DNA of 39,434 bases, from the IMG/VR virus record IMGVR_UViG_2541047689_000010. One strand, written 5' to 3'. The DNA is from a virus (lineage: Duplodnaviria > Heunggongvirae > Uroviricota > Caudoviricetes). Both the position numbers and the translations under genes were made by a program. Below the pieces are notes generated by a model. The model was not told the DNA's origin and did no database searches. It was given only the letters and a program-made list of their open reading frames with translations. The stretch's first letter is position 1, and every line of letters begins with the position of its first letter. This document shows, in pieces, positions 1,289 to 13,105 of this stretch.

Positions 1289-1771
1289 CTATCTGGTCAG
1301 GGTGTCGTACTGTTTTTCGCAGACTCTTCCGGCTTCGGCTGCCCGGTCAGCATACTCTGCCAGTTGTCTATTTCTCTCGAGAGATTTGCTGAACACGTCG
1401 GCAAGCAAAACTCCGGTGTCTGCGGCTGACGACCCAGCGCCGACAATGGCGTTATAGTGCCTGAGCTGCTCACGGATGGCAACGAGCTGTTGCTGCAACC
1501 GGCCAGCGCGAGCGGCAGCATCAAGAGCATCATTGCGCGCCTGGTCGATCCTCTGCTGAGCTTCACGTTCATTGGTCACTTTCTCCTGTTCGTAGTACTG
1601 ACGAACTTTTTCTTCTTCGGCTTTGCAGTCTTCTTTCGCCTGCGCATACCCGGCGTCGTACTGACGGCTACCGTGTACATTCCAGGCAACAACTCCTGAT
1701 ATGACCAGAACAGCAAGCACTGCCACGATAATCAACTGTTTCCAGTATGCTTTTACGAATGCCCAGATCAT
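1289..1771 (-). CDS. Rz-like inner-membrane spanin (i-spanin)
   Basis: N-terminal TM segment then charged coiled-coil region; immediately downstream of the endolysin; contains an embedded lipoprotein ORF in another frame. Confidence 0.7.
1297..1572 (-). CDS. Rz1-like outer-membrane lipoprotein spanin (o-spanin), fully embedded in the Rz frame
   Basis: ORF nested within 1289-1771 in a different frame; signal peptide with lipobox LAGC followed by Pro/Ser-rich short mature region. Exact start (M1 vs internal Met) uncertain. Confidence 0.5.
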   Translation of the reverse strand: MNVKLSRGSTRRAMMLLMLPLALAGCSNSSLPSVSSSGTITPLSALGRQPQTPEFCLPTCSANLSREIDNWQSMLTGQPKPEESAKNSTTP

Positions 1772-2397
1772 ACCGCCAGCACCTTACTGGCAGTGACGTA
1801 CCGCGCGCGCCGGTCGTCGATGCCATTCCTGCCACCATTGATAATCAGAGTTACACGTGCAATATCGCCGGTATACTTCATGCAACCTTTGCTGGAGAAG
1901 AACCACGCCGCGCTACGAGCCGCGTATTCGTCCTGCGCCAACAGTTCAGGATTCTCCAGCAGGTCCACTTTCAGGCCGTTTCCGCAATCACGATAGTTAT
2001 TCAAACCGGTAATCTGGATAAGTCCGCGGCCACGGTAATTCCAGCCATCGCCGGGGGCATTGTTCCCCATGCGTTTGCTGTACACCAGATTGGCAATCGC
2101 TCGCTGGCGCTCGAGTGGCAATGGTGGTTCACCAGCATGGCGACCCAGTGCATTAGCCTGCCCCTGAGTGAGACGCCCAGCCCGAACGAAGTTAGCCAGT
2201 CCGCTGACACTGTAGTTGAAATTCTCCTGCAACCTGGTGAAGCCCCCAGACTCATGCCCGACTTGAGCAATAAACATTGCCTGATCTTCTGCTTTGCTGA
2301 TACCAAACTCTTTCATCGCAGAAGTTATATGCGAGAACCAGCGTGCGGCCAGCGCCTCGCTAATACCAGCAGCTCGCTGGAATTGTTTAATCTCCAT
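1768..2397 (-). CDS. Endolysin, glycoside hydrolase family 19 (chitinase-like lysozyme)
   Basis: Start taken at internal ATG (MEIKQF...) rather than the longer track ORF; contains GHESGGF and the GH19 signature [12 protein letters not shown]; sits between holin-like genes and Rz. Confidence 0.8.
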
Positions 2398-2695
2398 GTT
2401 TAGACCTCGATATTTTGAAAATCTGAACAACGTTACCGCGTGTTTTAATAACCGCGGCAAGCATGACAGCGTTGATAATGACCTCAGATAAATCCACAGC
2501 CATTGGCGTGCGTAACCAGATTGAATAGACGACACGAACAGGAATACTGGCCGCAGCAACAATAAGGAAATAAGCAAGCCACCCTCCCCATCTTCGATGT
2601 TGAGAGCCGTTACGCCGGAATGTGACAACGCGAATTGCTATGCCAGTACAAATAACTGCATTGGTGATAAGCAAAAAAAACTCATGCGTTACCAT
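2387..2695 (-). CDS. Holin/antiholin-like small membrane protein
   Basis: 102 aa with about three hydrophobic helices; overlaps the endolysin start and the upstream membrane-protein stop (translational coupling). Confidence 0.5.
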
Positions 2696-3086
2696 CGTCT
2701 TTTCTCCCCGGAATTAAATCGCGTGGATTGTCTGAACGGTGGTAGAGCCATATACCAATACGCACAGCGACAATTGCTGACACGAATGCGCCAGCAGAGA
2801 AAACAATCCCTTTTTCAAAAGAGTCCTGCGTGATGGTAGGGATCAGGCTGGCTATGCCGATAAGAATTGATGCTGCTGGTTTGTAGAAAAGAAGTCCACA
2901 GAGAAAGCTAAGCATCGATAAGAGTACGCGACGATGAATTGGGTACTCTACCGCAGAGGTAACAAAAATTACCGCACCAGCAAGAGCACCGAGCGCCACC
3001 TCTGGCGGAACGCCTACGATAACTGCAGCAAGAGAGCTCACACTAAGCCATTGATTTAAAGAATCAGTAGTTAGATGGGCTGACAT
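2682..3086 (-). CDS. Holin-like membrane protein (about 4 predicted TM helices)
   Basis: Start taken at ATG (MSAHLTTDSL...), 9 nt inside the track ORF; several hydrophobic helices; first gene of the lysis cassette. Confidence 0.5.
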   Translation of the reverse strand: MSAHLTTDSLNQWLSVSSLAAVIVGVPPEVALGALAGAVIFVTSAVEYPIHRRVLLSMLSFLCGLLFYKPAASILIGIASLIPTITQDSFEKGIVFSAGAFVSAIVAVRIGIWLYHRSDNPRDLIPGRKDDGNA

Positions 3087-3315
3087 AATGAACACCGTTT
3101 ATTACGCATAACAATCTCCTTACTATTGAAGATTCACACATAATAAACCATTTAAGGATAATAGTTACCTCAAAACGCTGTATTTCTACCTTCTACGGCA
3201 ATGAAAATTTCGTTCAGAAAATGGTCTAGTGTACCTCTCAGTCACAATTAAAGAAGAAAGAAGCCGAACTTACTTCGTAATAAGCAAGCCGGCTACTAAG
3301 ATTAATCCTCAATAT

Positions 3316-6072
3316 TTAGCTACTTTCAAGCATTGCAAGACGTGATTCTATTTTTTCGATTCTTCTACGCAAATAAGCTGACTCAAGCCATAAACACTGG
3401 TCAGTACGGATACCCCACCTATTTCCAGCCTTGCAAACCAGAGTTCGCTCTTCTGTTTCGTATTCTTCTTCCATCTCAATTTCGACGCCATCCACAACTT
3501 TAGTGATCATCCTTACCGCCATCACTGGCGCGTATTTATCATCCCATTCATCGTAACAGAGAAGGCCAAATCTGGTTCCATCAATCCCATGCGCGAGGAA
3601 AGTGTCTCTCACTTGTTGTGCTATAACACCAAAATGCCAGCGGGCACCATCTCCCTTTTCCCTGACGGCATCAAGCCAGCGAAAAGCTACAATCCTGATA
3701 TCTCCCCATGCATCCAGAATTGCATCACCTTCATAACCACGAGACATATACAAGCTGAGCTCACTTGTACTAATCGGTTCACTTTTTTCTCTACCATCTG
3801 ATGTGTTTATCGAACCGTTCGCAGAATAAACCTGTGCCCATCTAAATGATGGTGCACCAAGAGATTTGCTGTTATCAATAATTGGTGAAAAATTACCTTT
3901 AATGGCAATATTTCCAGAGTCGCCGAATATATTAATAACTGCAGAGTCATCACCATGGTTTTTTACGCTTAAGTTTCTTGATGAAATATTTATATCTTTG
4001 TTATATCCACTAACATTAATCCATCTTTTACCATCAATGTGATACCCGTAAATATTTCCGTCTGATTGTTCGTCAGGTGACTCTCTAAGAACAATAGCAT
4101 CTGCTCCAGACGACCATTGTATTTTTGTATCTGTAGGCCTCCAGTTCTTTATAATGAACGAACCATCAGTAAACTCCGTTTTTATTTGTCTATTGTCTAC
4201 AAATGCGTCTCTTGGTTTAAACTCACTTGTGTTAACGCTGCTCTGAAGATCAGAAGCAAAAAATCTAAGATTTCCTGTATAACCCTGAGTCTCGGTCTGG
4301 TTATACGCAATCATAATTCCATTTTCAAACTCAGATGATGTTATTTTAACATCACGGCAATCACCAAAAATGCAATTTCCTTTATCAAATGTTGTTTGAG
4401 CTTTGAATTTATCAAACCTTAAATTACGAACAGGGAAACCATCAACCTCTAATGCAAAGGATGCAGGAAGGCCAAAGTATTCTGATGGCTTACCTGATGT
4501 ATGATCAAGAGTAGTGGCTACTGTATTCTCAAAAACAGTCCCGCTAAAATTATTACCAATTGACGGAAACCTGATTACACTTATTGTACCTTGTATTTCA
4601 GGAGAAATACCAGATAGTGTGATGTTAGCTCCATCAAATGATGCATCTGAATACGTATATACTGATTCACTGCCAGCAATTTTAAACTGTTTAACTGAAG
4701 TTATTCTCATCGACTTTTTATGTTTAAATGTCACTGAGCTTTCAGTATTACTTACAAGATCAATCTGAGGGCTATTCCTTATCGCGATCCCTGACTGGAC
4801 ATAAACGTTATTAAAGTGCGTTTTTTCAGGATTTCCCTTCATTGAAAGGCTCCCGTCATTTTCTGTCAGTAGTAGTCCTTTTACCCTCCAATAGCCGACA
4901 ATCTGTACGTTATCAATAACTGAATCACAGCTATCGTATACATGCAACCCTATATCCCAGTCATCACCCAATGAATAAGAATCAGGGTTATTGTATCCTT
5001 CAATACCATTTTTACTTACCATTATTCTCAGGTTGCGTAACTGTGATGCCCTGTTGATACTAACAGCTACGCTCATGGCTTTTGGTGTAGCAGGAGTAAC
5101 ACCTACAGAATCTTCATTTGTAAACTCAGTGAACTTACAAGATATCCCTTCAACAATTTTAACTGGTCTTTCATTAGAGATGTTAAAAAAATATTTGTTT
5201 TTTTCTCCATCACCAGTAAATACAAGATGGGTTCCTTTACTCCAACTTTTTAATAATCTTTCAGGCGCTGGTCTATATGTATCCCAATAATCAATGCCAT
5301 CACCAATTAAAGACACTCCAGGAGGCACATCTATGTTCTTAGAAATCATCCATTTACCTGCAGGTATTCTAACGACACTTGCACCAGAATTTATCGCATT
5401 AATTAACCATTCAGACGCATCAACTTCAAAATTTAATGCAGCATATCTTTGCTCAAACGGAACAAAATCAAGAGCGTTAACGTTATCCCGCATCTTATCC
5501 TGGAACGTTCGGTATACTGCTCCAGAACCATACTGAATAAACCAACCAAAACCACCAACAACTCCGGCGATTGCAGCATCAACATAATTGCGCATTGATC
5601 GATTATTTACAGCATCCTGCTCAAGTGATGGATCTGCAAGGTTAGAAATTTTGTTTTGCTTTGCATCGTAATATTTTGCAAGCAAAGATGGTTTCATCAA
5701 TGCACGTCTGAACCATCCAAAACATTGCTGGATCAGCATCGTCAGATAGTCAAAGGCATCTTCATGCACCTCGGGGAAAAATTTTCCCTGATTACGAAGA
5801 TCAGTCTCCTGCACCACATCAAGCACACGATCTATCGTAATTCGCCATCCAGCAGCAAGCGGCGACGGAAGAACAACAGAACCGCCACTATAAGTGCCCG
5901 CCCCTGTTACCGTATAACCGGTATCCAGAACCAATTCTGTTACGTTCCCGTTCAGGTCAGACACCTGAACAACCAGGTCGGATTTTTTGAAAATACGGAA
6001 GGTATACGGAAATGATGTCGTAGCTCCGTTACCTGTGTATTCGTTGTGGTCAACTTCGGTTGAGACCGTCAT
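3316..6072 (-). CDS. Tailspike / tail fibre protein with C-terminal intramolecular-chaperone (peptidase S74-like) domain
   Basis: 918 aa; long central Ser/Asn/Gly-rich region consistent with a beta-helical receptor-binding domain; C-terminal ...DGREKSEPISTSELSLYMS...WHFGVIAQQV... resembles self-cleaving chaperone domains of tailspikes/endosialidases. Confidence 0.8.
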   Translation of the reverse strand: MTVSTEVDHNEYTGNGATTSFPYTFRIFKKSDLVVQVSDLNGNVTELVLDTGYTVTGAGTYSGGSVVLPSPLAAGWRITIDRVLDVVQETDLRNQGKFFPEVHEDAFDYLTMLIQQCFGWFRRALMKPSLLAKYYDAKQNKISNLADPSLEQDAVNNRSMRNYVDAAIAGVVGGFGWFIQYGSGAVYRTFQDKMRDNVNALDFVPFEQRYAALNFEVDASEWLINAINSGASVVRIPAGKWMISKNIDVPPGVSLIGDGIDYWDTYRPAPERLLKSWSKGTHLVFTGDGEKNKYFFNISNERPVKIVEGISCKFTEFTNEDSVGVTPATPKAMSVAVSINRASQLRNLRIMVSKNGIEGYNNPDSYSLGDDWDIGLHVYDSCDSVIDNVQIVGYWRVKGLLLTENDGSLSMKGNPEKTHFNNVYVQSGIAIRNSPQIDLVSNTESSVTFKHKKSMRITSVKQFKIAGSESVYTYSDASFDGANITLSGISPEIQGTISVIRFPSIGNNFSGTVFENTVATTLDHTSGKPSEYFGLPASFALEVDGFPVRNLRFDKFKAQTTFDKGNCIFGDCRDVKITSSEFENGIMIAYNQTETQGYTGNLRFFASDLQSSVNTSEFKPRDAFVDNRQIKTEFTDGSFIIKNWRPTDTKIQWSSGADAIVLRESPDEQSDGNIYGYHIDGKRWINVSGYNKDINISSRNLSVKNHGDDSAVINIFGDSGNIAIKGNFSPIIDNSKSLGAPSFRWAQVYSANGSINTSDGREKSEPISTSELSLYMSRGYEGDAILDAWGDIRIVAFRWLDAVREKGDGARWHFGVIAQQVRDTFLAHGIDGTRFGLLCYDEWDDKYAPVMAVRMITKVVDGVEIEMEEEYETEERTLVCKAGNRWGIRTDQCLWLESAYLRRRIEKIESRLAMLESS

Positions 6073-6175
6073 GTTAAATCTCCAGATAGTCGCAGCACCC
6101 GTTGCGCCGCATATCTGGTTATTCTATTACCTGAAAAACCACATATGGATAGAAAGACTGTAAATACGAATAGAT

Positions 6176-6192
6176 ATTACCTTTCAGGTAAT
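6176..6192. promoter_or_regulatory. Operator-like dyad ATTACC-N5-GGTAAT (family copy)
   Basis: Perfect inverted repeat read directly; lies just upstream of a candidate promoter for gene 6268-6525. Confidence 0.5.
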
Positions 6193-6228
6193 TTGCAAAA
6201 CGTGCTGGATAGCAAACAAATTATTTGC

Positions 6229-6248
6229 TACTGTATAAATATACAGTT
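6229..6248. promoter_or_regulatory. LexA (SOS) box
   Basis: TACTGTATAAATATACAGTT matches the E. coli LexA consensus CTGT-N8-ACAG with AT-rich spacer; ends 20 nt upstream of the ATG at 6268. Confidence 0.65.
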
Positions 6249-6267
6249 ATTGCATGGAGAAGATAAG

Positions 6268-6525
6268 ATGCAGCAGTATCACTATCCACTGGAAGACGGA
6301 TTTACCGAAAGGATTCACACGCCGGGAGGCGTCAGGTCACTGGTGGAGGGATCGCACTTGATGAAATTACTCCGGGATCTCGATAAGGATGGATTTAATG
6401 TCGATGGCCCACTTGCCGAACTGACTGCACTGATTAACTACGTCACCAGCTCACAGATGTCTATGCAGGATCTGCAAACACATCTCGACTATTGTGCCGA
6501 ACAATTACGAAAGCAAACCAGATAA
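6268..6525 (+). CDS. Small SOS-controlled protein homologous to the C-terminal domain of the adjacent Bro-N antirepressor (putative antirepressor)
   Basis: ATG with GGAG upstream, in frame with track ORF 6145-6525; about 85 aa; alignable with residues about 160-230 of the 6839-7531 product. Confidence 0.55.
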   Translation: MQQYHYPLEDGFTERIHTPGGVRSLVEGSHLMKLLRDLDKDGFNVDGPLAELTALINYVTSSQMSMQDLQTHLDYCAEQLRKQTR

Positions 6526-6555
6526 GGTTTGCAATTACCAAGTGGAGTGCTTATA

Positions 6556-6572
6556 TTTACCTTTGCGGTAAA
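6556..6572. promoter_or_regulatory. Operator-like dyad TTTACC-N5-GGTAAA embedded in a longer imperfect inverted repeat
   Basis: Read directly; flanked by GGAGTGC ... GCACTCC. Confidence 0.45.
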
Positions 6573-6838
6573 TTTACATCGCACTCCTCTTGTGCCATAG
6601 TAATCGGGCACTGGCAAAATCCAGTGCCGGGATTGGTCTCCCGGATTACTACAGAGGCACATATGCCGCATAAGCGGTTTTTTTATGTGTAAAGCGCACC
6701 TATTCTATGGTGGGCTGTGTGGGGGCACCGAAAGGTGCGCCGGGTTCCTTTGTAGCCGGTAAGACCAACTCTGCACAGTTCACCACCATCTGATTGGTCT
6801 CAGCGGTGGTGATTAACCTAACTACAAAGGTGATCGCC

Positions 6839-7638: not shown

Positions 7639-7848
7639 ATGGGATTTTGGTTCGCTCGTACAAAAACGAGGGATAATGCACCCAGCCCTCAGGCAAAAAA
7701 TGCAGAAGTTCCGGCGTCAGCGCAGGTTAACAAGCGTGGTGGAGTATATATCTCATCACAGCAAATTTCTGAGCTTCCTGAGGTTAAGGAGATGCGTCGT
7801 CTCGCTGCTGCAATTGTTAAACAGGATCTTGCCACTGTAAGGAAGTAG
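7639..7848 (+). CDS. Small hydrophilic protein (69 aa), unknown function, translationally coupled to the downstream membrane protein
   Basis: SD GAGGAGGAG before ATG; stop TAG overlaps the GTG start of the next gene (TAGTG). Confidence 0.5.
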   Translation: MGFWFARTKTRDNAPSPQAKNAEVPASAQVNKRGGVYISSQQISELPEVKEMRRLAAAIVKQDLATVRK

Positions 7849-8714
7849 TGTTGCTAGCTCTTCTAATTATCCCAATCCTGGTTAGCGGTTATATTATGAT
7901 AACCGCTAACCAGTATCATTATTTCCGTTTATACCGACACGAAGGCCAGCTTCTTTATATGAAAGTAGCGGCACTAGGTACATATTGCCTTGTTGCATCA
8001 GTAATAATTGCAGCCGCTATAAAATATAAATGGCCTGATTTTCACCTAGTTCACGATATGGTGGAAACTTTTAATGTAACATCAAAACCAGAAACAGATA
8101 GAATTTACATGTGGCTGCTTCTTCTCTCAGCCACATCCATTTGCTTCTCTTTGTGTTATGTGTCTGTTGTGTGGGTGAAAGATTTTCTTCTTGGTTGTTT
8201 TTATAAACGTGATATTTACGAGCAAAAAACAGAGGCAATGAAGGCCAGAGTACTGCGAAAAACTTACTCGCAAGGTTCTTTAGACTTACTATTGCTTGAT
8301 GCTATTGAATCGGATCCTAAACGACCAATGCTGATTACTTTATCATCAAACAAAGTGTATGTTGGAATAATAAATGGTTCTGGTGAACCAACGGAAAATC
8401 AGGGTCCGCATCAGCACATATCTTTTGTTCCTTTAATGTCAGGATACAGGAACAAAGAAAACTTATCTGTCACATTCACTAATGCTTATCCAGGAGAAAT
8501 ACAGGTCAAGCGGACTGCAGCAATAAGAGGAATTAGCAGAAAGAAAGTGCCAGGACTTGAGATCATGGTGTCTATTGACGAAATAAGTTATATATCATGG
8601 TTTGATTTTGAAGTATATAAAGCAACAAATAACAAAGTAGAATCCAGGGGGCACGTTATTCGTGTTACCAAAAATGGAAGAAATATATATCAAAGAAATA
8701 GCAAAAAAGAATAG
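7848..8714 (+). CDS. Membrane protein with three N-terminal TM helices and a roughly 170-aa C-terminal soluble domain; unknown function (candidate exclusion/abortive-infection effector)
   Basis: GTG start with AAGGAAG SD; hydrophobic segments LLALLIIPILVSGYIMI, VAALGTYCLVASVIIAAAI, YMWLLLLSATSICFSLCYVSVVW; gene is visibly AT-rich compared with flanking phage genes; intrinsic terminator directly after the stop. Confidence 0.55.
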   Translation: MLLALLIIPILVSGYIMITANQYHYFRLYRHEGQLLYMKVAALGTYCLVASVIIAAAIKYKWPDFHLVHDMVETFNVTSKPETDRIYMWLLLLSATSICFSLCYVSVVWVKDFLLGCFYKRDIYEQKTEAMKARVLRKTYSQGSLDLLLLDAIESDPKRPMLITLSSNKVYVGIINGSGEPTENQGPHQHISFVPLMSGYRNKENLSVTFTNAYPGEIQVKRTAAIRGISRKKVPGLEIMVSIDEISYISWFDFEVYKATNNKVESRGHVIRVTKNGRNIYQRNSKKE

Positions 8715-8736
8715 CCCGCGCTGCGGGCTTTTTTGT
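8714..8736 (+). terminator. Intrinsic terminator
   Basis: GCCCGC-gct-GCGGGC followed by TTTTTTGT, starting at the stop codon of 7848-8714. Confidence 0.6.
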
Positions 8737-8770
8737 GTCTGCGGATTCCCGCCCGGGCGGCGGTGGCATT

Positions 8771-8798
8771 CGTTAAAAACAAGGCCGCGAAAGCGGCC
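8771..8798 (-). terminator. Intrinsic terminator (minus strand)
   Basis: Minus-strand GGCCGC-TTTC-GCGGCC followed by TTGTTTTTAACG; directly downstream of palindrome copy 1. Confidence 0.55.
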
Positions 8799-8799
8799 T

Positions 8800-8811
8800 G
8801 TGACATGTCAC
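8800..8811. repeat. Perfect 12-bp palindrome GTGACATGTCAC, copy 1 of 3
   Basis: Read directly; one nt from the stop codon of 8813-9263 and immediately before the terminator hairpin. Confidence 0.8.
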
Positions 8812-8812
8812 G

Positions 8813-9263
8813 CTACTTGCGAAATCTTTCTTTACCCTTCCAGCCAGTAGATGTTAGTTCAGGATGAATGGTTCCCAATATAAAGCCAACCATAGCGGAG
8901 CGAGGATCTTCTATTTTATCCGTTAATTCTTCGGCATAACTCACAGGCAACCAAGCAACAAGATCACCAATCCTCAGCTTTGGTCCTTTGCTGTAAGATG
9001 AATCGGCAATAACAAAAAATCCACCATCAGCTGAGCACACCTTCAGCATTGCCCTTTGTCTTCCAGAATCTAGCAAAACTGGCTGTTCCCCACTTGGACC
9101 AGGTATGATGATGGCTGGCATTGGTTTATTGGCTGAAAGGCTTGTGTCAAGATACTTACACGCATACTCAAAAGCTGAAAAGTTATCCTTAAAGATAAGA
9201 GGTTGAATTTTATTGCTAACCTCCTTACCACCGATTAATCTGTTGATCATCTTCTTGAACATA
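8813..9263 (-). CDS. Hypothetical protein (about 149 aa), unknown function
   Basis: Start taken at ATG (MFKKMINR...) with SD AGGTGA 5 nt upstream; lies in the AT-rich accessory block. Confidence 0.5.
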
Positions 9264-9274
9264 AAGGTCACCTA

Positions 9275-9715
9275 ATGATTAAGCCGATGCACGCTATTAC
9301 AGCTACCGTTTTGTTTATCCTACCAATTTTTTCGTTTGCAAACGACATATGTTTTAAGAATTTAATAAATGAGGATATGTGTGCACATGCAAACAAAATT
9401 GCATCAGAAGCAGGAAAGTCACTTCCCATAAAATTGAATGATAATATGTCTATTGTTTCAATAAATGCAATACTAAACAAACTTTTAGTTGTAGCGCATC
9501 TTAATTACAACAACAGCTATTTATCAAAAGTTTATAACGGTGATGTAACCTTAGAAAATAAATTAAAGAGTGTAATGCGAAATTATTCAAAATCGAGCAT
9601 TTGCTCCAACAGGCAAATGAAAGCATTTATTCACCTTGGCGGAGAGATTGAATATAGGTATGTATTTAGTGATGGCAATATATTTGATACATACGCCATC
9701 ACTAATTGTGAATAG
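9275..9715 (+). CDS. Secreted/periplasmic small protein with cleavable signal peptide and four Cys; unknown function
   Basis: N-terminus MIKPMHAITATVLFILPIFSFA then NDICF...; AT-rich; stop abuts the stop of the convergent tail gene. Confidence 0.5.
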   Translation: MIKPMHAITATVLFILPIFSFANDICFKNLINEDMCAHANKIASEAGKSLPIKLNDNMSIVSINAILNKLLVVAHLNYNNSYLSKVYNGDVTLENKLKSVMRNYSKSSICSNRQMKAFIHLGGEIEYRYVFSDGNIFDTYAITNCE

Positions 9716-12700
9716 CTATTTCATCTGCTCTTCAACTTTATTTAGTAACGGTGATATCGCCCACAGGTTCTGAAAAGGTAGCATTTTACGGACCGCGTGG
9801 GTTTGCTGGCTGTCAAATTCTCCGTTAAGTACACCATTCGCAACCGTCGCGGCATCACCGCCAAGATCAAAGGTAGGACCAAGTAAAGCACCAATAGCAT
9901 TACGACTCTGAAACCTTGATACCGGAGGCGCACCAAACATCGCGCCAAGACCAAACCTACCGCCGCTTATGTTCTCAACGGTATTCAGCGGCTCAGAGAG
10001 CCAGCCAAGCATTCCGCCCCGGTCGATCCCCTCTTTCACAAGGTTATTCCAGCTGTAGTCGATATCGCGACCGCTTAACTTCTGTTTCATCATATAGACC
10101 ATTGAGCCAAGCGCAATCGTGCCAAGCGCACCAAGATAGAATGCAGCATCGCCCTGCTGGATACCAGATACTAGCACCCTGTTATGCTGTGCGAAGATAA
10201 ACGTTTTGAACTGCGTGATCATCTTCCAGCCTTCTTTACTAAAAAACAGCGGTGTATCACCTACGCCAGGCGTTACAATCACTGAGTCTACATCTTTCAG
10301 CACTGCAGACTGGAAAATCTCTCTAGCGAAACGGTCATCCCACAGATGACTATGCCCGGTTAACAGCCCGTCCATATCCTCTCCGTGCTTCCCGAATTGC
10401 TCCCCGATTCGGCGCAGAACATCTTCATTGATGCCGACCTGTGCCATCTTCCGCATTTCACTTTTGGAGAGCGTGCCACCAGCAGAAACTTGGCGAGCCG
10501 CGTCAAGTATCCTCGACTGCACTATCATCCCGGACCATGATTTAAGTGCGCTGTTCCACTGATTCATCAGCGTCCAGTTACCGAATTTCTGCGTCATCCA
10601 GTTCAGACCTCGCTCAGCGGCGCTTCTCCGGCTATAGGGGTCAGTAAGATCCGCTATAGCCTTTGTACGCGTAGACAGGACATAATCAAGCCCAACGGCC
10701 ATTTCTCGCAAATCCCTGGTTGCAATTTTCACTGAGTCCATATTTTTAAGCATGCTTACCATTGGTCCGAGAGATTTTCTCAGGCCATGCTGCATCATCG
10801 GTCGCATCAGATCAGTTGCAGCGGAGACAGTCATTCCACCAAGCAAACGGAGGAAGTTAATATTCCTAGCAACTCGCCCGGCACGAACAAAGAAACTGCG
10901 TGGATCTTGAGGTGCACCGTAAGTACCAAGCAGTCGATCACGCATAGCCGTAATATCCCTAATATCAGCCTCCCGTTGCTTCTCAAGAACTGCACGTCGT
11001 TTAGGTGTTTTAGCCTCTTTTATTAGCCGGGTATATTCCTCACTAACCTGACGGATTTGCTCCCCCATATCTTTACGGCCAAACTGCGCAGTCAGCTCAA
11101 TTTCTGGTGCCACCTGCCGGAGATAACTTTCCATGATGTAGTTAACATCTGATTCAAGAAAATCTTCTATACGCTCATCAGGAATAAGCAGCGTTCTGCT
11201 TTTAGTGAAACCAGCCCGACCAACGAGTCTCTCTGGGATAATATCGGCTGGTACAAGCCCGGAAGGTGCGCCTATTATTTTATTCACGATCTCGTCAGCA
11301 GCGTCCTCTGCTTCCTCTCGGGATAGAGGCTCCATCTGCTTCAGTGCTCGTTCGCGGCTTGCATTCAGCCTTGTGGTTGAATTTGCCCGTTTTTGCAGTC
11401 GGCGAAGCTCAGAACGATATTTCCGTGGATTATCCAGCAACTCCATATGGCGCTGATAGACAGGAAGCTCACTCTTTGCCTGCGCTATATCATCAAGGCG
11501 TGTTTTAAGGTCAGAGCTTTCTTTCATCATTCTTGCCTGAAGTTTTTCTGATGAAGTCTCGGCCAACTCTTTTTCTATTCTTGTAAGACGCGCCTGTGTG
11601 TCAGTCTCCTGAGATATAAGCTTATTTCGTTTATCCAGTTCTTCCATGAGTAGAATTTTTTTACCAGACCATTTCTCCGCTTCAGCGATTTCACTAGCGA
11701 GAGCATCAGCGCGCGGTGCCGATTCCTCTGCAGTTTTTAGCAATGAATTTATCCTTTCAATTCGCTGACCTGCTTTGTCAGCACCTTTGGCACTAATCCC
11801 TTGTATCCAGTTGGCAATTCGCCCTCTGAATTCAGTGCGGTCGGAAAGTATCTTATCGAACTTATAAATGCGGGGAAGATAACTTTTCGCCGTCACGACA
11901 TCGATATCCTCAGGAAGGATCCCCAGTTCCTGCATACGGGCTTTTGTGGTCTCGAAAATGGGGCGGATTCTGGCGGCTGCTTGTGAAACCTCAGGAATAT
12001 CACTCTGATCACCACGGCGCATAGCCATGCCAACAGCTTCATTGAAATCAATAAAGTTCATCCTCTTCACGCCGCGGGCGCTAACAGATTTGCTGTACTG
12101 CTGGTAAGCATCACGAGTGGCTTCCATCTGCTTATAAAGCATGGCGTCGTATTGCTTAATCTTAGTCTCGACTGCCGTAAACGTAGCCAACCCCTCATCA
12201 TTTTTGGCGAAGAAATAGTTATTTTCGGCAAGCTGCTGGTTAATCTGACGGGAGACAAGAGATGGTGATTGAGCCAAGCGGCCAGCAGGAGTGACACTCA
12301 ACGTTTTGTTAGCAAGTCCAAGTCCAGCGAGCTGTTCCTGATCGAGTGTGGTATTGAAAACCTGAGCTGCACCAATGCTTTGAGGAGAATCCATACCTCG
12401 CAAATGATTACCTACTGAGTTAACCACTGCCTCGCGCGCGCTAGGTCCAGCAAGTAGCTGTGCACCAGCACCAAGGATCCCACCAACGAGAGCATCAACA
12501 ACAACGTTCGATACGCTCTCCATCGGTGAGCGAGCTTCCTGAGTGGCCTGTAATGCGGCTTCTGATACTCCCCCACCAGCAGCATTCGCCAGGGCAAAAC
12601 GCCCTGCCGTCTCAGCAATACTTCCTCCACGCGCTACCGCCCCTACAGGGATAAACATTGCAGCCACATTAACCGGGTCTATCATTCCCATTGCTAAGCT

Positions 12701-13105
12701 TGAAATAGTACCAGCACCACCCATTTCAGATAGATATTCTCTATCTGTTCTTTGCTTATCGATTCGATGTTTAATTGCCATTGTTTCTTCATGCGAACCG
12801 GAGTTGATAAACGAATCTGCAAAATCTTCATAGCCTTTAATATCTGCTGCATCGTTATCAAATGGGTTATATCCTTCAACCCTGTCAAACTGACTGAAAG
12901 GAGCACTGGCAATAAAGCTACCCAGCGTGTTATCTATACGAAATGCTGCTTGTCTAGACCTTTGAACGCGTTGATCACTGGTAAATGGGTTCACAGCAGA
13001 AAGCAAAGAAGGTGTTTCCATATAGAAATTACTGTCATCAGGTGCTGCTATTTGCTGAATATCCTCGCCAAGCAACTCTTTAGGATCCTGTTCATATATC
13101 GGCAT
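9716..13105 (-). CDS. Large virion internal/ejection or tail protein (1129 aa) with extended coiled-coil region
   Basis: Size, position in the structural block, long charged helical segment; no tape-measure/sheath/tube set elsewhere, consistent with a podovirus internal core protein. Confidence 0.65.
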   Translation of the reverse strand: MPIYEQDPKELLGEDIQQIAAPDDSNFYMETPSLLSAVNPFTSDQRVQRSRQAAFRIDNTLGSFIASAPFSQFDRVEGYNPFDNDAADIKGYEDFADSFINSGSHEETMAIKHRIDKQRTDREYLSEMGGAGTISSLAMGMIDPVNVAAMFIPVGAVARGGSIAETAGRFALANAAGGGVSEAALQATQEARSPMESVSNVVVDALVGGILGAGAQLLAGPSAREAVVNSVGNHLRGMDSPQSIGAAQVFNTTLDQEQLAGLGLANKTLSVTPAGRLAQSPSLVSRQINQQLAENNYFFAKNDEGLATFTAVETKIKQYDAMLYKQMEATRDAYQQYSKSVSARGVKRMNFIDFNEAVGMAMRRGDQSDIPEVSQAAARIRPIFETTKARMQELGILPEDIDVVTAKSYLPRIYKFDKILSDRTEFRGRIANWIQGISAKGADKAGQRIERINSLLKTAEESAPRADALASEIAEAEKWSGKKILLMEELDKRNKLISQETDTQARLTRIEKELAETSSEKLQARMMKESSDLKTRLDDIAQAKSELPVYQRHMELLDNPRKYRSELRRLQKRANSTTRLNASRERALKQMEPLSREEAEDAADEIVNKIIGAPSGLVPADIIPERLVGRAGFTKSRTLLIPDERIEDFLESDVNYIMESYLRQVAPEIELTAQFGRKDMGEQIRQVSEEYTRLIKEAKTPKRRAVLEKQREADIRDITAMRDRLLGTYGAPQDPRSFFVRAGRVARNINFLRLLGGMTVSAATDLMRPMMQHGLRKSLGPMVSMLKNMDSVKIATRDLREMAVGLDYVLSTRTKAIADLTDPYSRRSAAERGLNWMTQKFGNWTLMNQWNSALKSWSGMIVQSRILDAARQVSAGGTLSKSEMRKMAQVGINEDVLRRIGEQFGKHGEDMDGLLTGHSHLWDDRFAREIFQSAVLKDVDSVIVTPGVGDTPLFFSKEGWKMITQFKTFIFAQHNRVLVSGIQQGDAAFYLGALGTIALGSMVYMMKQKLSGRDIDYSWNNLVKEGIDRGGMLGWLSEPLNTVENISGGRFGLGAMFGAPPVSRFQSRNAIGALLGPTFDLGGDAATVANGVLNGEFDSQQTHAVRKMLPFQNLWAISPLLNKVEEQMK

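What the first reader, a model, noticed from the sequence alone, without database searches (positions are those of the whole stretch)
8771..9715. Face-to-face divergent gene pair with start codons about 12 bp apart sharing a palindromic RBS core
The minus-strand gene (ATG at 9263) and the plus-strand signal-peptide gene (ATG at 9275/9276) have their ribosome-binding sites built from the same short palindrome AGGT-C-ACCT. Each promoter must therefore lie inside the other gene and the two mRNAs must overlap antisense at their 5' ends, which implies mutually exclusive or mutually interfering expression. One product is cytoplasmic, the other is secreted with four Cys. Both are AT-rich and of unknown function.
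Basis: partly seen in the sequence, partly recalled or inferred. Interest (0 to 1): 0.45.

Follow-up and report, generated by a model that had tools for sequence, protein, structure and literature searches.

The report
Head-to-head accessory genes in a prophage
Two real, conserved accessory genes of an epsilon15-like E. coli prophage start only 12 bases apart on opposite strands, so each can only be transcribed through the other, which probably makes their expression antagonistic; it is an unusually compact case of a known kind of arrangement, and neither protein has a known function.

Summary
Gene A (8813-9262, minus strand, 149 aa, cytoplasmic) and gene B (9275-9715, plus strand, 146 aa, signal peptide, four invariant Cys) start 12 nt apart, and their two Shine-Dalgarno sites interdigitate. 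Both are under purifying selection.

The pair lies in the variable accessory slot of an epsilon15/phiV10-like prophage, between the last ejection-protein gene and the tailspike gene. This is the counterpart of the P22 sieA/immI region.

- **The palindrome:** it is incidental. Relatives have AAAGGCCACCAA, and a 9-mer like it occurs by chance in 23 of 100 shuffles.
- **What is conserved:** the head-to-head geometry (12-23 nt) in at least six diverged loci, plus a ~155-bp mosaic junction module (A codons 1-23, spacer, B signal peptide) that is exchanged independently of both gene bodies.
- **B's promoter:** it must lie inside A. The candidate is TTGCTA-N17-TAATCT at 9213-9241.
- **A's promoter:** no proximal promoter is supported, and no terminator separates A from the late operon. 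A is therefore probably transcribed antisense through all of B.

Functions and transcripts remain untested. This is a new variant of known face-to-face or excludon-type arrangements.

The parts
8813..9262 (-). Gene A: 149-aa cytoplasmic protein (WP_000473936.1, phrog_9944). Residues 1-20 are predicted disordered, followed by a helix and an OB-like beta-barrel.
9194..9348 (.). Mosaic junction module: A codons 1-23, the 12-nt spacer, and B's signal-peptide codons. It is exchanged independently of both gene bodies.
   Evidence: blastn breakpoints at about 9193 and about 9322-9348. Segment identities are 77-88% in the junction against 64-80% in A bodies, with B bodies either 83% identical or unrelated. 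Window and L033 have A bodies 87% identical but unrelated junctions.
9213..9241 (+). Candidate promoter of B inside A codons 8-17: TTGCTA (9213-9218), 17-nt spacer, TAATCT (9236-9241). Predicted transcription start about 9248.
   Evidence: PWM scans. Promoter-like sites sit at the equivalent position in two other junction types: L033 TTGCTT-18-TATCTT, and L004 TTGCCA-17-TATTCT (12 of 1000 shuffles; also flagged by the strict scan). Synonymous-codon identity is raised in A codons 1-15. This is a candidate only.
9263..9274 (.). 12-nt spacer AAAGGTCACCTA holding both Shine-Dalgarno sites: SD_B AAGG(T) at 9264-9268 on the plus strand, SD_A AGGTGA at 9273-9268 on the minus strand. The palindrome AGGTCACCT lies at 9265-9273.
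   Evidence: Sequence; comparison of junctions; palindrome statistics
9275..9715 (+). Gene B: 146-aa exported protein (WP_000595048.1, phrog_8772). Signal peptide aa 1-22 (9275-9340). The mature domain has the AspS/PA3611 fold, four conserved Cys and an LGGE motif. 31.7% GC.
9651..9678 (-). Best sigma70-like site on the A-sense strand (TTGCCA-16-TATATT), just downstream of the late-gene stop and inside B on the antisense strand. It is a possible internal promoter for A.
   Evidence: It is also present in L036, but it overlaps B's most conserved coding motif, so its conservation is uninformative.
8772..8799 (-). Intrinsic terminator ending the A transcription unit (AGGCCGCTTTCGCGGCCT followed by a T tract).
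   Evidence: an equivalent hairpin follows A in L036 and L032
8713..8738 (+). Intrinsic terminator ending the rightward block (the 288-aa gene at 7848-8714). It blocks plus-strand read-through toward B. It is annotated as 'terminator' in phage phiV10.
9716..13105 (-). Last internal-virion/ejection protein gene of the late operon (1129 aa, phrog_342). Its stop codon abuts B's stop codon (TAG|CTA), leaving no room for a terminator.

Best explanation
The window is an epsilon15/phiV10-like podovirus prophage of E. coli. The pair sits in the variable accessory slot inside the late operon, between the last ejection-protein gene and the tailspike gene. This slot is the counterpart of the P22 gene16-sieA-immI-gene9 region.

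**Layout (shown).** Gene A runs in the same direction as the late operon and is closed by an intrinsic terminator. Gene B is an AT-rich moron lying antisense between the ejection-protein gene and A. It is stop-to-stop with the former and start-to-start with the latter. Twelve nucleotides is close to the smallest spacer that can hold two SD-led starts, because each SD serves as the other gene's spacer.

**Forced by geometry.** B can only be transcribed from a promoter inside A. A can only be transcribed by polymerases that have crossed B's start region in antisense.

**Inferred.**
- B's promoter lies in A's dispensable, disordered first ~20 codons, most likely TTGCTA-N17-TAATCT at 9213-9241. 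It is used in the quiescent prophage, as for sieA and mnt in P22.
- A is transcribed across the whole of B, either by late-operon read-through or from a site such as 9678-9651.
- Leftward transcription therefore silences B by promoter occlusion, polymerase collision and full-length antisense RNA. B transcription in turn opposes A.
- The result is antagonistic, probably lifecycle-separated, expression.

**The junction and the products.** The ~155-bp junction behaves as a portable module supplying both start regions. B is a soluble periplasmic protein with an AspS/PA3611 fold and is a candidate superinfection-exclusion or envelope factor. A is a cytoplasmic OB-like protein. They are most likely independent cargo genes rather than an obligate pair.
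For: **Phage identity and slot**
- ε15-type GP7 major capsid protein, portal, Peptidase_S74 tailspike; phrog_342 internal virion protein; phiV10-like flanks.
- 522 of 5426 E. coli genomes share the flanks, but only 13 carry A+B. The others carry different cargo.
[quoted passage not shown] SieA is prophage-expressed and targets ejection proteins (PMC10461980).

**Genes**
- Conservation and purifying selection.
- Head-to-head geometry recurs with 12, 12, 12, 13, 19 and 23 nt spacers in loci whose A proteins are 57-85% identical and whose partners are of different types.

**Terminators**
- Present on the left.
- None conserved between the late gene and A.
- In L032, A follows a virion gene directly with no B, and the terminator comes only after A.

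**B as an independently expressed, lysogeny-type gene**
- Stand-alone B genes sit in the same slot in Providencia and other hosts. L005 and L020 carry TTGACG-N19-TAATAT upstream of B. L005 also has a hairpin between B and the late gene, and L020 has a 45-nt gap there that was not scanned.
- In Klebsiella, B lies 11 nt downstream of an Arc/Mnt-like repressor gene.

**Promoters and mosaicism**
- The promoter candidate for B is at an equivalent position in three junction types. My Fisher combination of the p-values gives about 0.013. A codons 1-15 show excess synonymous conservation.
- No proximal promoter for A is supported.
- A residues 1-20 are disordered and absent from Klebsiella and P0026 homologues.
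- Mosaic junction.

**Folds:**
Against: - No transcript data exist. Every promoter assignment rests on hexamer matches that individually are within shuffle expectation (7.8 bits against a shuffle-best mean of 8.9; 129 of 1000 shuffles).
- Sequence conservation of the candidate cannot be separated from conservation of A's INRL motif.
- A homologue of A in an Acinetobacter phage sits directly after the repressor gene. Another lies in a defence-island-like neighbourhood. Both suggest A may itself be a lysogeny-expressed gene rather than a late gene.
- A is found next to a divergent exported Cys-protein gene in 7 locus types. This could indicate a functional partnership.
- Late-operon read-through assumes no Rho-dependent or cryptic termination within the 441-nt untranslated antisense stretch.
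Confidence: 0.5

Rival explanations
1. Two face-to-face promoters, one in the first codons of each gene, fire toward each other with starts about 40 nt apart. The two mRNAs overlap only at their 5' ends, covering both SDs and both start codons. Expression in the lysogen is mutually interfering or bistable.
For: - The geometry forces at least a 10-nt antisense overlap.
- The junction module, which contains both 5' ends, is the best-conserved and most independently mobile part of the cassette.
- -10-like hexamers lie 25-33 nt upstream of A's ATG in three junction types: TGTAAT, TAATAT and TATATT, each with a 19-nt spacer.
- There is an experimental precedent. The Ecl18kI R and M genes are divergent, but their promoters face each other, and one start lies opposite the partner's initiation codon (PMC2760811).
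Against: - Proximal A promoter scores are not above shuffles: 416, 824, 444, 102 and 213 of 1000. L036 has essentially none.
- A 19-nt spacer is poor for sigma70.
- Stronger A-sense sites lie far upstream.
- Late-operon transcription reaches A anyway, because no terminator intervenes.
Confidence: 0.2
2. A and B form one functional two-compartment system, for example a superinfection-exclusion or defence module with a periplasmic component and a cytoplasmic one. The tight junction exists to keep them co-inherited and co-regulated.
For: - A lies next to a divergently oriented gene for an exported Cys-containing protein in 7 locus types: B1 in the window, L036/L018 and L004; B2 in L031, L033 and L035; B3 in L037.
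- B1 and B2 align collinearly with their C-terminal Cys pair matched, although the score is weak (hhalign probability 6%).
- The slot corresponds to that of P22 sieA.
Against: - Each gene occurs without the other. B is alone in Providencia, L019-L023 and L043. A is alone in L032, L038-41, L047 and an Acinetobacter phage.
- In Klebsiella they are 1.6 kb apart in different operons.
- The gene bodies recombine independently.
- There are no PADLOC hits.
- Co-occurrence can be explained by both genes preferring the same slot.
Confidence: 0.15
3. The 12-nt junction is a neutral scar of deletion or illegitimate recombination, for example loss of an immI-like arc-ant-mnt module that lies between A and B in Klebsiella relatives. 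It has no regulatory meaning, and one or both genes are poorly expressed cargo.
For: - In Klebsiella loci, the 129 bp at window 9194-9322 is replaced by 1635 bp carrying ant, arc and an mnt-like gene with its own control region.
- Phage accessory slots are highly mosaic.
- Neither gene is found in 50,697 sequenced phage isolates.
Against: - The compact geometry persists across loci as diverged as 57% (A) and 30% (B) identity, and across three different junction sequences.
- Both genes remain under purifying selection.
- Good SDs are retained for both genes in every variant.
- The junction is more conserved than the flanking gene bodies.
Confidence: 0.15

Closest known systems
P22 sieA / immI region (between ejection-protein gene 16 and tailspike gene 9)
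   Same: - It is a variable accessory region inside the late operon, between the last ejection-protein gene and the tailspike gene.
- It contains opposite-strand, prophage-expressed genes next to the ejection-protein genes (PMC8022706, PMC10461980).
- Klebsiella relatives of this cassette carry an arc-ant-mnt module between A and B.
   Different: - The phage lineage differs: ε15-like (GP7 capsid family) rather than P22-like.
- B is a soluble periplasmic protein with an AspS/PA3611 fold, not an inner-membrane protein like SieA.
- No homology to SieA was shown and no exclusion phenotype is known.
- The 12-nt head-to-head junction has no counterpart in P22. That statement rests on my own recollection of the P22 map.
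Face-to-face promoters of divergent genes (Ecl18kI R-M system; coliphage 186 pR/pL) and the excludon concept
   Same: - Divergently oriented genes whose transcripts overlap at their 5' ends.
- A transcription start located within or opposite the partner's coding region.
- Antagonistic expression through promoter competition, collision and antisense RNA (PMC2760811, PMC7154746, PMC12288877).
   Different: - Here nothing is mapped experimentally.
- The spacer is far shorter (12 nt, with interdigitated SDs).
- No regulator or operator is evident.
- The overlap is probably asymmetric, with the whole of B covered by the A-sense transcript.
AspS (T2SS pilotin, PF16549 T2SSS_2) and PA3611 of P. aeruginosa
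   Same: - The secondary-structure order is the same, and B has the extra helix after beta3 that is described for PA3611.
- A conserved Cys pair joins the long helix to the C-terminus.
- Like PA3611, B has a signal peptide but no lipobox (PMC3542185).
   Different: - Sequence identity is about 15%.
- B does not hit PF16549. Only 2 of 82 family members hit it, and only weakly.
- B has an additional N-terminal disulfide pair (C26/C36).
- It is never linked to secretin or T2SS genes. It sits in prophage slots, or in a Tn7-like element in L045.
Morons (autonomously expressed extra genes in temperate phage genomes)
   Same: - B is an extra gene present in only some otherwise collinear prophages.
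- Its GC content is strongly deviant (31.7% against 47.9%).
- It is oriented against the surrounding operon.
   Different: - B has no intergenic space for its own promoter and no terminator of its own.
- Its expression signals must be embedded in neighbouring coding sequences.

Membership tests
AspS/PA3611 fold family (Pfam T2SSS_2, PF16549) | alpha1-beta1-beta2-beta3-alpha2-alpha3-beta4-beta5 fold | tested here: met
   [not shown]
AspS/PA3611 fold family (Pfam T2SSS_2, PF16549) | Sequence-profile match above the Pfam gathering threshold | tested here: not met
   B gives no PF16549 hit. 2 of 82 family members hit at E=0.003, which is sub-threshold. Family profiles find no PDB sequence.
AspS/PA3611 fold family (Pfam T2SSS_2, PF16549) | Lipoprotein signal (lipobox Cys), as in pilotins | tested here: not met
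   The signal peptide ends SFA|NDIC, with no lipobox. This resembles the soluble protein PA3611 rather than AspS.
AspS/PA3611 fold family (Pfam T2SSS_2, PF16549) | Conserved disulfide tying the long helix to the C-terminal element | tested here: inconclusive
   C110 (end of helix 91-111) and C145 (C-terminus) are invariant in 74-82 sequences. The distance between them in the model could not be measured with the tools available.
AspS/PA3611 fold family (Pfam T2SSS_2, PF16549) | Genomic or functional link to a secretin (binding to the S-domain) | tested here: not met
   Every context examined is a prophage accessory slot or a Tn7-like element, with no secretin or T2SS genes nearby. Binding itself cannot be tested here.
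Excludon / face-to-face promoter pair | Neighbouring opposite-strand genes whose transcripts overlap | not testable with these tools
   The geometry forces an overlap of at least 10 nt if both genes are transcribed. No RNA data are available.
Excludon / face-to-face promoter pair | Identified promoters directing transcription into the partner gene | tested here: inconclusive
   The B candidate is at an equivalent position in three junction types (combined p about 0.013). The proximal A candidate is not supported.
P22 sieA-type prophage exclusion gene | Located between the last ejection-protein gene and the tailspike gene, on the strand opposite to the late operon | tested here: met
   B lies at 9275-9715 (plus strand), between the ejection-protein gene at 9716-13105 (minus) and the tailspike gene at 3316-6072 (minus). 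The P22 description is from PMC8022706. The orientation of sieA is from my own knowledge.
P22 sieA-type prophage exclusion gene | Inner-membrane protein homologous to SieA that blocks DNA injection | not tested
   No direct comparison with SieA was made. B has no membrane segment apart from its signal peptide, so it differs in kind. The phenotype cannot be tested here.
Moron | Extra gene with deviant composition, absent from otherwise collinear relatives | tested here: met
   13 of 522 E. coli genomes with the same flanks carry it. GC is 31.7% against 47.9%.
Moron | Own promoter and own terminator flanking the gene | tested here: inconclusive
   There is a candidate promoter inside A. No plus-strand terminator was found downstream of 9715.
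OB-fold proteins (gene A) | Five-stranded closed beta-barrel superposable on OB domains | tested here: inconclusive
   [not shown]

The most novel reading that the evidence does not exclude
The ~155-bp junction (9194-9348) is a portable, self-contained bidirectional switch cassette. It gives any gene body recombined onto its left side a disordered N-terminal tag, and any gene body recombined onto its right side a signal peptide. It makes their expression mutually exclusive, so a lysogen population splits into cells making the periplasmic factor or the cytoplasmic factor.

On this reading B would be a new class of soluble, pilotin-like (PA3611-fold) periplasmic superinfection-exclusion protein. 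It would intercept the trans-periplasmic ejection conduit encoded next door, or a secretin. A would act on the incoming nucleic acid in the cytoplasm.
Probability: 0.1. Interest if true: 0.7.

Novelty: new variant of a known kind. Interest (0 to 1): 0.4.

Why it matters
If the predicted antagonism is real, this is about the most compact natural example of two protein-coding genes regulating each other purely through overlapping transcription. It would have no intergenic DNA and no dedicated regulator, and it comes in a module that phages swap as a unit.

It also flags two uncharacterised protein families that recur in the accessory slot next to the ejection-protein genes of epsilon15-like prophages in Escherichia, Klebsiella, Cedecea and Providencia. 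This is the position where P22 keeps its superinfection-exclusion gene. B is the more tractable of the two: it is exported, disulfide-bonded, and has the fold of the T2SS pilotin AspS and of PA3611, a protein whose own function is still unknown. A phenotype for B could therefore shed light on PA3611-like proteins in general.

If the arrangement turns out to be neutral, it is simply a tidy illustration of phage mosaicism.

Tried and rejected
- **Palindrome as a specific element.** A 9-mer like it occurs by chance in 23 of 100 shuffles, and it is absent from relatives.
- **RNA structure at the junction.** z-scores are -1.1 and -0.4, so not significant.
- **Rfam.** The only hit is a sub-threshold Trp_leader match that is really the terminator hairpin.
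- **Extended inverted repeat around the starts.** None was reported by the repeat finder. By eye the 15-nt arms match at 11 of 15 positions in the window but only 8 of 15 in L036.
- **Pfam, NCBIfam and PADLOC for A and B.** No significant hit.
- **Genome-contig scan with the A profile.** No confirmed locus.
- **PDB sequence-profile searches for B.** Only noise.
- **afdb50 fold library.** Unavailable.
- **BFVD fold search for A.** Nothing significant.
- **Literature search by accession or PHROG id.** No papers.
- **Hairpin 9619-9598 as a late-operon terminator.** It is weak (3 GC pairs, 8-nt loop) and absent from L036, L035 and L004.
- **Proximal sigma70 promoter for A in B's signal-peptide codons.** Not above shuffles.
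- **The 95-aa gene upstream of Providencia B as an A homologue.** Not related.
- **B as a true pilotin.** No lipobox and no linkage to a secretin.
- **Names for distant B relatives.** All are 'hypothetical'.
Full report
**1. What is in the sequence**

The plus strand reads cat(9260-9262)-AAAGGTCACCTA(9263-9274)-atg(9275-9277).

- Gene A is the minus-strand ORF 8813-9262 (149 aa).
- Gene B is the plus-strand ORF 9275-9715 (146 aa).
- NCBI's PGAP pipeline annotates exactly these two CDSs in a 100% identical E. coli chromosome (WP_000473936.1 and WP_000595048.1).
- In both families the first Met is conserved and the second (residue 5) is not. The 12-nt spacing therefore reflects the real starts.

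The palindrome AGGT-C-ACCT lies at 9265-9273.

SD_B is AAGG(T) at 9264-9268, with 6-7 nt to the ATG. SD_A is AGGTGA on the minus strand at 9273-9268, with 5 nt to the ATG. Each SD lies in the other gene's SD-to-ATG spacer. Twelve nucleotides is thus about the smallest interval that can hold two SD-led divergent starts.

The palindrome itself is unremarkable:
- 0.24 copies are expected in the window, and 23 of 100 shuffles contain at least one.
- The RNA around it does not fold better than shuffles.
- Relatives carry AAAGGCCACCAA or longer spacers instead.
- Two back-to-back SDs (AGG/CCT) form an inverted repeat by construction.

GC content is 31.7% for B, 41.8% for A and 47.9% for the window. 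Only B is strongly AT-rich.

**2. Both are real genes**

- A and B each match a full-length PHROG family of unknown function.
- A has 13-20 relative clusters.
- B has 9 close clusters. An exhaustive profile search finds 306 representatives at E of 1e-3 or better.
- dN/dS against diverged copies is 0.05-0.23 for A and about 0.2 for B.
- B has a Sec-type signal peptide (SFA|ND, no lipobox), four Cys conserved across 74-82 sequences, and an LGG(E) motif.

**3. Where the pair sits**

The window is an epsilon15/phiV10-like podovirus prophage:
- It has the ε15-type GP7 major capsid protein, a portal protein and a Peptidase_S74 tailspike.
- It has a phrog_342 'internal virion protein' of 1129 aa.
- Its flanks match phiV10-type phages, including a sequence annotated as 'terminator' in phiV10.

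On the minus strand the late operon runs from portal through capsid to the ejection proteins, ending at 9716. The tailspike gene (6072-3316) follows 3.6 kb later. Between them lie B (antisense), A (sense), two terminators and a rightward block (Bro-N antirepressor and a 288-aa protein).

522 of 5426 complete E. coli genomes share the flanks, but only 13 carry A+B. The others carry different cargo, such as a single 283-aa gene or YafO, DUF4760 or DUF2335 proteins.

[quoted passage not shown] SieA is a prophage-expressed protein that blocks injection and is escaped by mutations in the ejection proteins (PMC10461980).

**4. Comparative anatomy**

*Same architecture elsewhere.* The order 'ejection-protein gene, B antisense, A sense, terminator' recurs as follows:

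| Locus | Source | A identity | B identity | Spacer |
|---|---|---|---|---|
| L011-L017 | E. coli UViGs | 99-100% | 99-100% | 12 nt |
| L036 / L018 | metagenome contigs | 68% (L036) | 78-79% | 12 nt |
| L004 | Cedecea davisae | 57% | 30% | 19 nt |

*Different partners for A.*
- In L031, L033 and L035, A faces a different exported protein, B2, at 13, 23 and 12 nt. B2 has two Cys and aligns with B only weakly, though collinearly.
- In L037, A faces a third type, B3, across 234 bp.

*B without A.*
- B occurs alone in the same slot in Providencia (L005-7), L019-L023 and L043. It is often head-to-head with other small minus-strand genes at 24-326 nt.
- L005 and L020 carry TTGACG-N19-TAATAT upstream of B. 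L005 also has a hairpin between B and the ejection-protein gene, and L020 has a 45-nt gap there that was not scanned.

*A without B.*
- In L032, A directly follows a virion gene, and the terminator comes only after A.
- Distant A homologues lie in non-phage contexts.
- In Acinetobacter phage MD-2021a, a homologue (hhalign probability 98%) lies immediately downstream of the repressor gene.

*Klebsiella.* In L008-10, A and B are both present but 1.6 kb apart, separated by an immI-like module. On A's side are ant (P22_AR_N) and arc. On B's side is an Arc/Mnt-like gene, and B starts 11 nt after it.

**5. Mosaic junction**

blastn breakpoints fall at about 9193 (A codon 23/24) and about 9322-9348 (the end of B's signal peptide).

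- Segment identities show that the junction (A codons 1-23, spacer, signal peptide) is 77-88% identical among the window, L036, L035 and L031. Their A bodies are 64-80% identical, and their B bodies are either 83% identical or unrelated.
- Conversely, the window and L033 share an 87% identical A body but have unrelated junctions.
- A residues 1-20 are predicted disordered. They are missing from the Klebsiella and P0026 homologues.

The ~155-bp junction is therefore a unit with its own evolutionary history. It supplies both translation starts, a dispensable N-terminal tail for A, and the signal peptide for B.

**6. Transcription (inference)**

*B.* Plus-strand read-through from the left is blocked by a strong terminator at 8713-8738, so B's promoter must lie between about 8740 and 9274, within A.
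- The best-placed candidate is TTGCTA-17-TAATCT (9213-9241), with its -10 element 33 nt from the ATG.
- Two non-homologous junction types carry promoter-like pairs at the equivalent place: L033 TTGCTT-18-TATCTT, and L004 TTGCCA-17-TATTCT (12 of 1000 shuffles; also called by the strict scan).
- My Fisher combination over the three junction types gives p of about 0.013.
- Synonymous-codon identity is raised in A codons 1-15 (0.61-0.68 against about 0.42).
- Individually these matches are weak, and they overlap A's INRL motif.

*A.* No proximal promoter is supported.
- The strongest A-sense site, TTGCCA-16-TATATT at 9678-9651, lies just after the ejection-protein gene's stop.
- B's stop abuts that gene's stop (TAG|CTA).
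- No conserved terminator lies between it and A.

Any polymerase that transcribes A must therefore first cross B in antisense. This probably covers all 441 nt, whether the polymerase starts in the late operon or at an internal site.

*Predicted consequence.* B and A should be expressed antagonistically. Leftward transcription would occlude the B promoter and produce full-length antisense RNA. Rightward transcription would collide with it.

By analogy with sieA and mnt in P22, and given the Mnt-B arrangement in Klebsiella, B is likely expressed in the lysogen. A's timing is less clear. Its position argues for late read-through. The Acinetobacter homologue beside the repressor gene argues that A could be a lysogeny gene.

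Experimental precedents for this logic exist:
- Ecl18kI, where divergent genes have facing promoters and one start lies opposite the partner's initiation codon (PMC2760811).
- The excludon concept (PMC7154746 and PMC12288877).

**7. The proteins**

*B.* The model is confident for the mature domain (pLDDT above 90).
- The AspS paper describes the same element order, a conserved disulfide, an extra helix after beta3 in PA3611, and PA3611 as a soluble periplasmic protein of unknown function (PMC3542185).
- B matches PA3611 on these points.
- However, B fails the Pfam T2SSS_2 threshold, has no lipobox, and is never near secretin genes. One distant relative is cargo of a Tn7-like element.
- I therefore call it AspS/PA3611-fold, not a pilotin.

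Neither protein hits PADLOC. Neither is found in 50,697 sequenced phage isolates apart from the Acinetobacter A homologue.

**8. Verdict**

This is a compact, recurrent head-to-head junction between two independently mobile accessory genes in the sieA/immI-equivalent slot of an ε15-like prophage. B's promoter is forced to lie inside A. A is probably transcribed through B.

It is a new variant of known face-to-face/excludon arrangements and of moron biology. The palindrome is incidental. The functions of both proteins, and every transcription start, remain to be shown experimentally.

Noticed in passing
window 9716-13105: PGAP names this 1129-aa protein 'DUF919 family protein'. The name rests on a 46-residue match (residues 530-575, 23 bits) to a nucleopolyhedrovirus DUF. 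PHROG identifies the protein as an internal virion/ejection protein (phrog_342, E 3e-235), so the DUF919 label looks spurious.
   Followed up: partly
window 8600-9900 flanks; E. coli genomes: The slot is a cargo hotspot. 522 of 5426 complete E. coli genomes share the flanks, but only 13 carry A+B. The others carry a 283-aa gene (WP_001555613.1) or YafO toxin, DUF4760, DUF2335 or 'transmembrane anchored protein' genes.
   Followed up: partly
L008-L010 (Klebsiella) 2024-4432: A and B are both present but separated by a P22 immI-like module: ant (P22_AR_N), arc, and an Arc/Mnt-like gene. B starts 11 nt after the Mnt-like gene. A follows ant behind a terminator hairpin and lacks the first ~20 codons seen in E. 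coli.
   Followed up: yes
L031 2544-2987, L033 2046-2477, L035 2045-2488: A second exported protein type, B2 (two Cys, motif CSPFG...SDCD), replaces B opposite A. In L031 and L035 it carries essentially B's signal peptide, so the recombination point is the signal-peptidase site. Its similarity to B is collinear but weak (hhalign probability 6%).
   Followed up: partly
L023 2662-3000 / 2983-3420; L043 4660-4956 / 5001-5471: Stand-alone B homologues are also head-to-head with small membrane-protein genes. The gaps are 44 nt or less, and the ORFs as called even overlap at their 5' ends in L023. Tight head-to-head junctions therefore seem to be a general property of this slot and are not specific to A.
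   Followed up: no
L046 (Acinetobacter phage MD-2021a) 2195-3387: A true homologue of A (hhalign probability 98%) lies directly downstream of, and co-oriented with, the CI-like repressor gene. This is the classic position of prophage-expressed exclusion or defence genes.
   Followed up: partly
L045 (Hydrogenophaga) 1539-6657: A distant B-family protein (218 aa) lies next to TnsC-like (AAA_22) and TniQ genes, so it is probably cargo of a Tn7-like transposon. Other family members are fused to Sel1, LprI/DUF1311 or AMIN domains.
   Followed up: no
L031 2812-3450 (protein P0003, 212 aa): An automated gene call extends A by 63 codons through the junction and antisense into the partner's signal-peptide codons. 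The open antisense frame invites mis-annotation. The window has a similar 70-aa antisense ORF at 9268-9480.
   Followed up: no
window 7848-8714: The neighbouring 288-aa gene (phrog_3630, N-terminal membrane segments, 36.9% GC) is another AT-rich accessory gene of unknown function. It ends at a strong terminator that is bidirectional in form.
   Followed up: no
window 8654-8736: The weak Rfam Trp_leader hit (20 bits against a gathering score of 41, E 0.45) coincides with the intrinsic terminator hairpin. It is almost certainly not a leader.
   Followed up: yes
window 9713-9718: The convergent stop codons of B and the ejection-protein gene abut to form the palindrome TAGCTA. In L031, L033 and L035 the convergent ORFs overlap by 4 nt. 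No terminator can therefore separate the two transcription units.
   Followed up: yes
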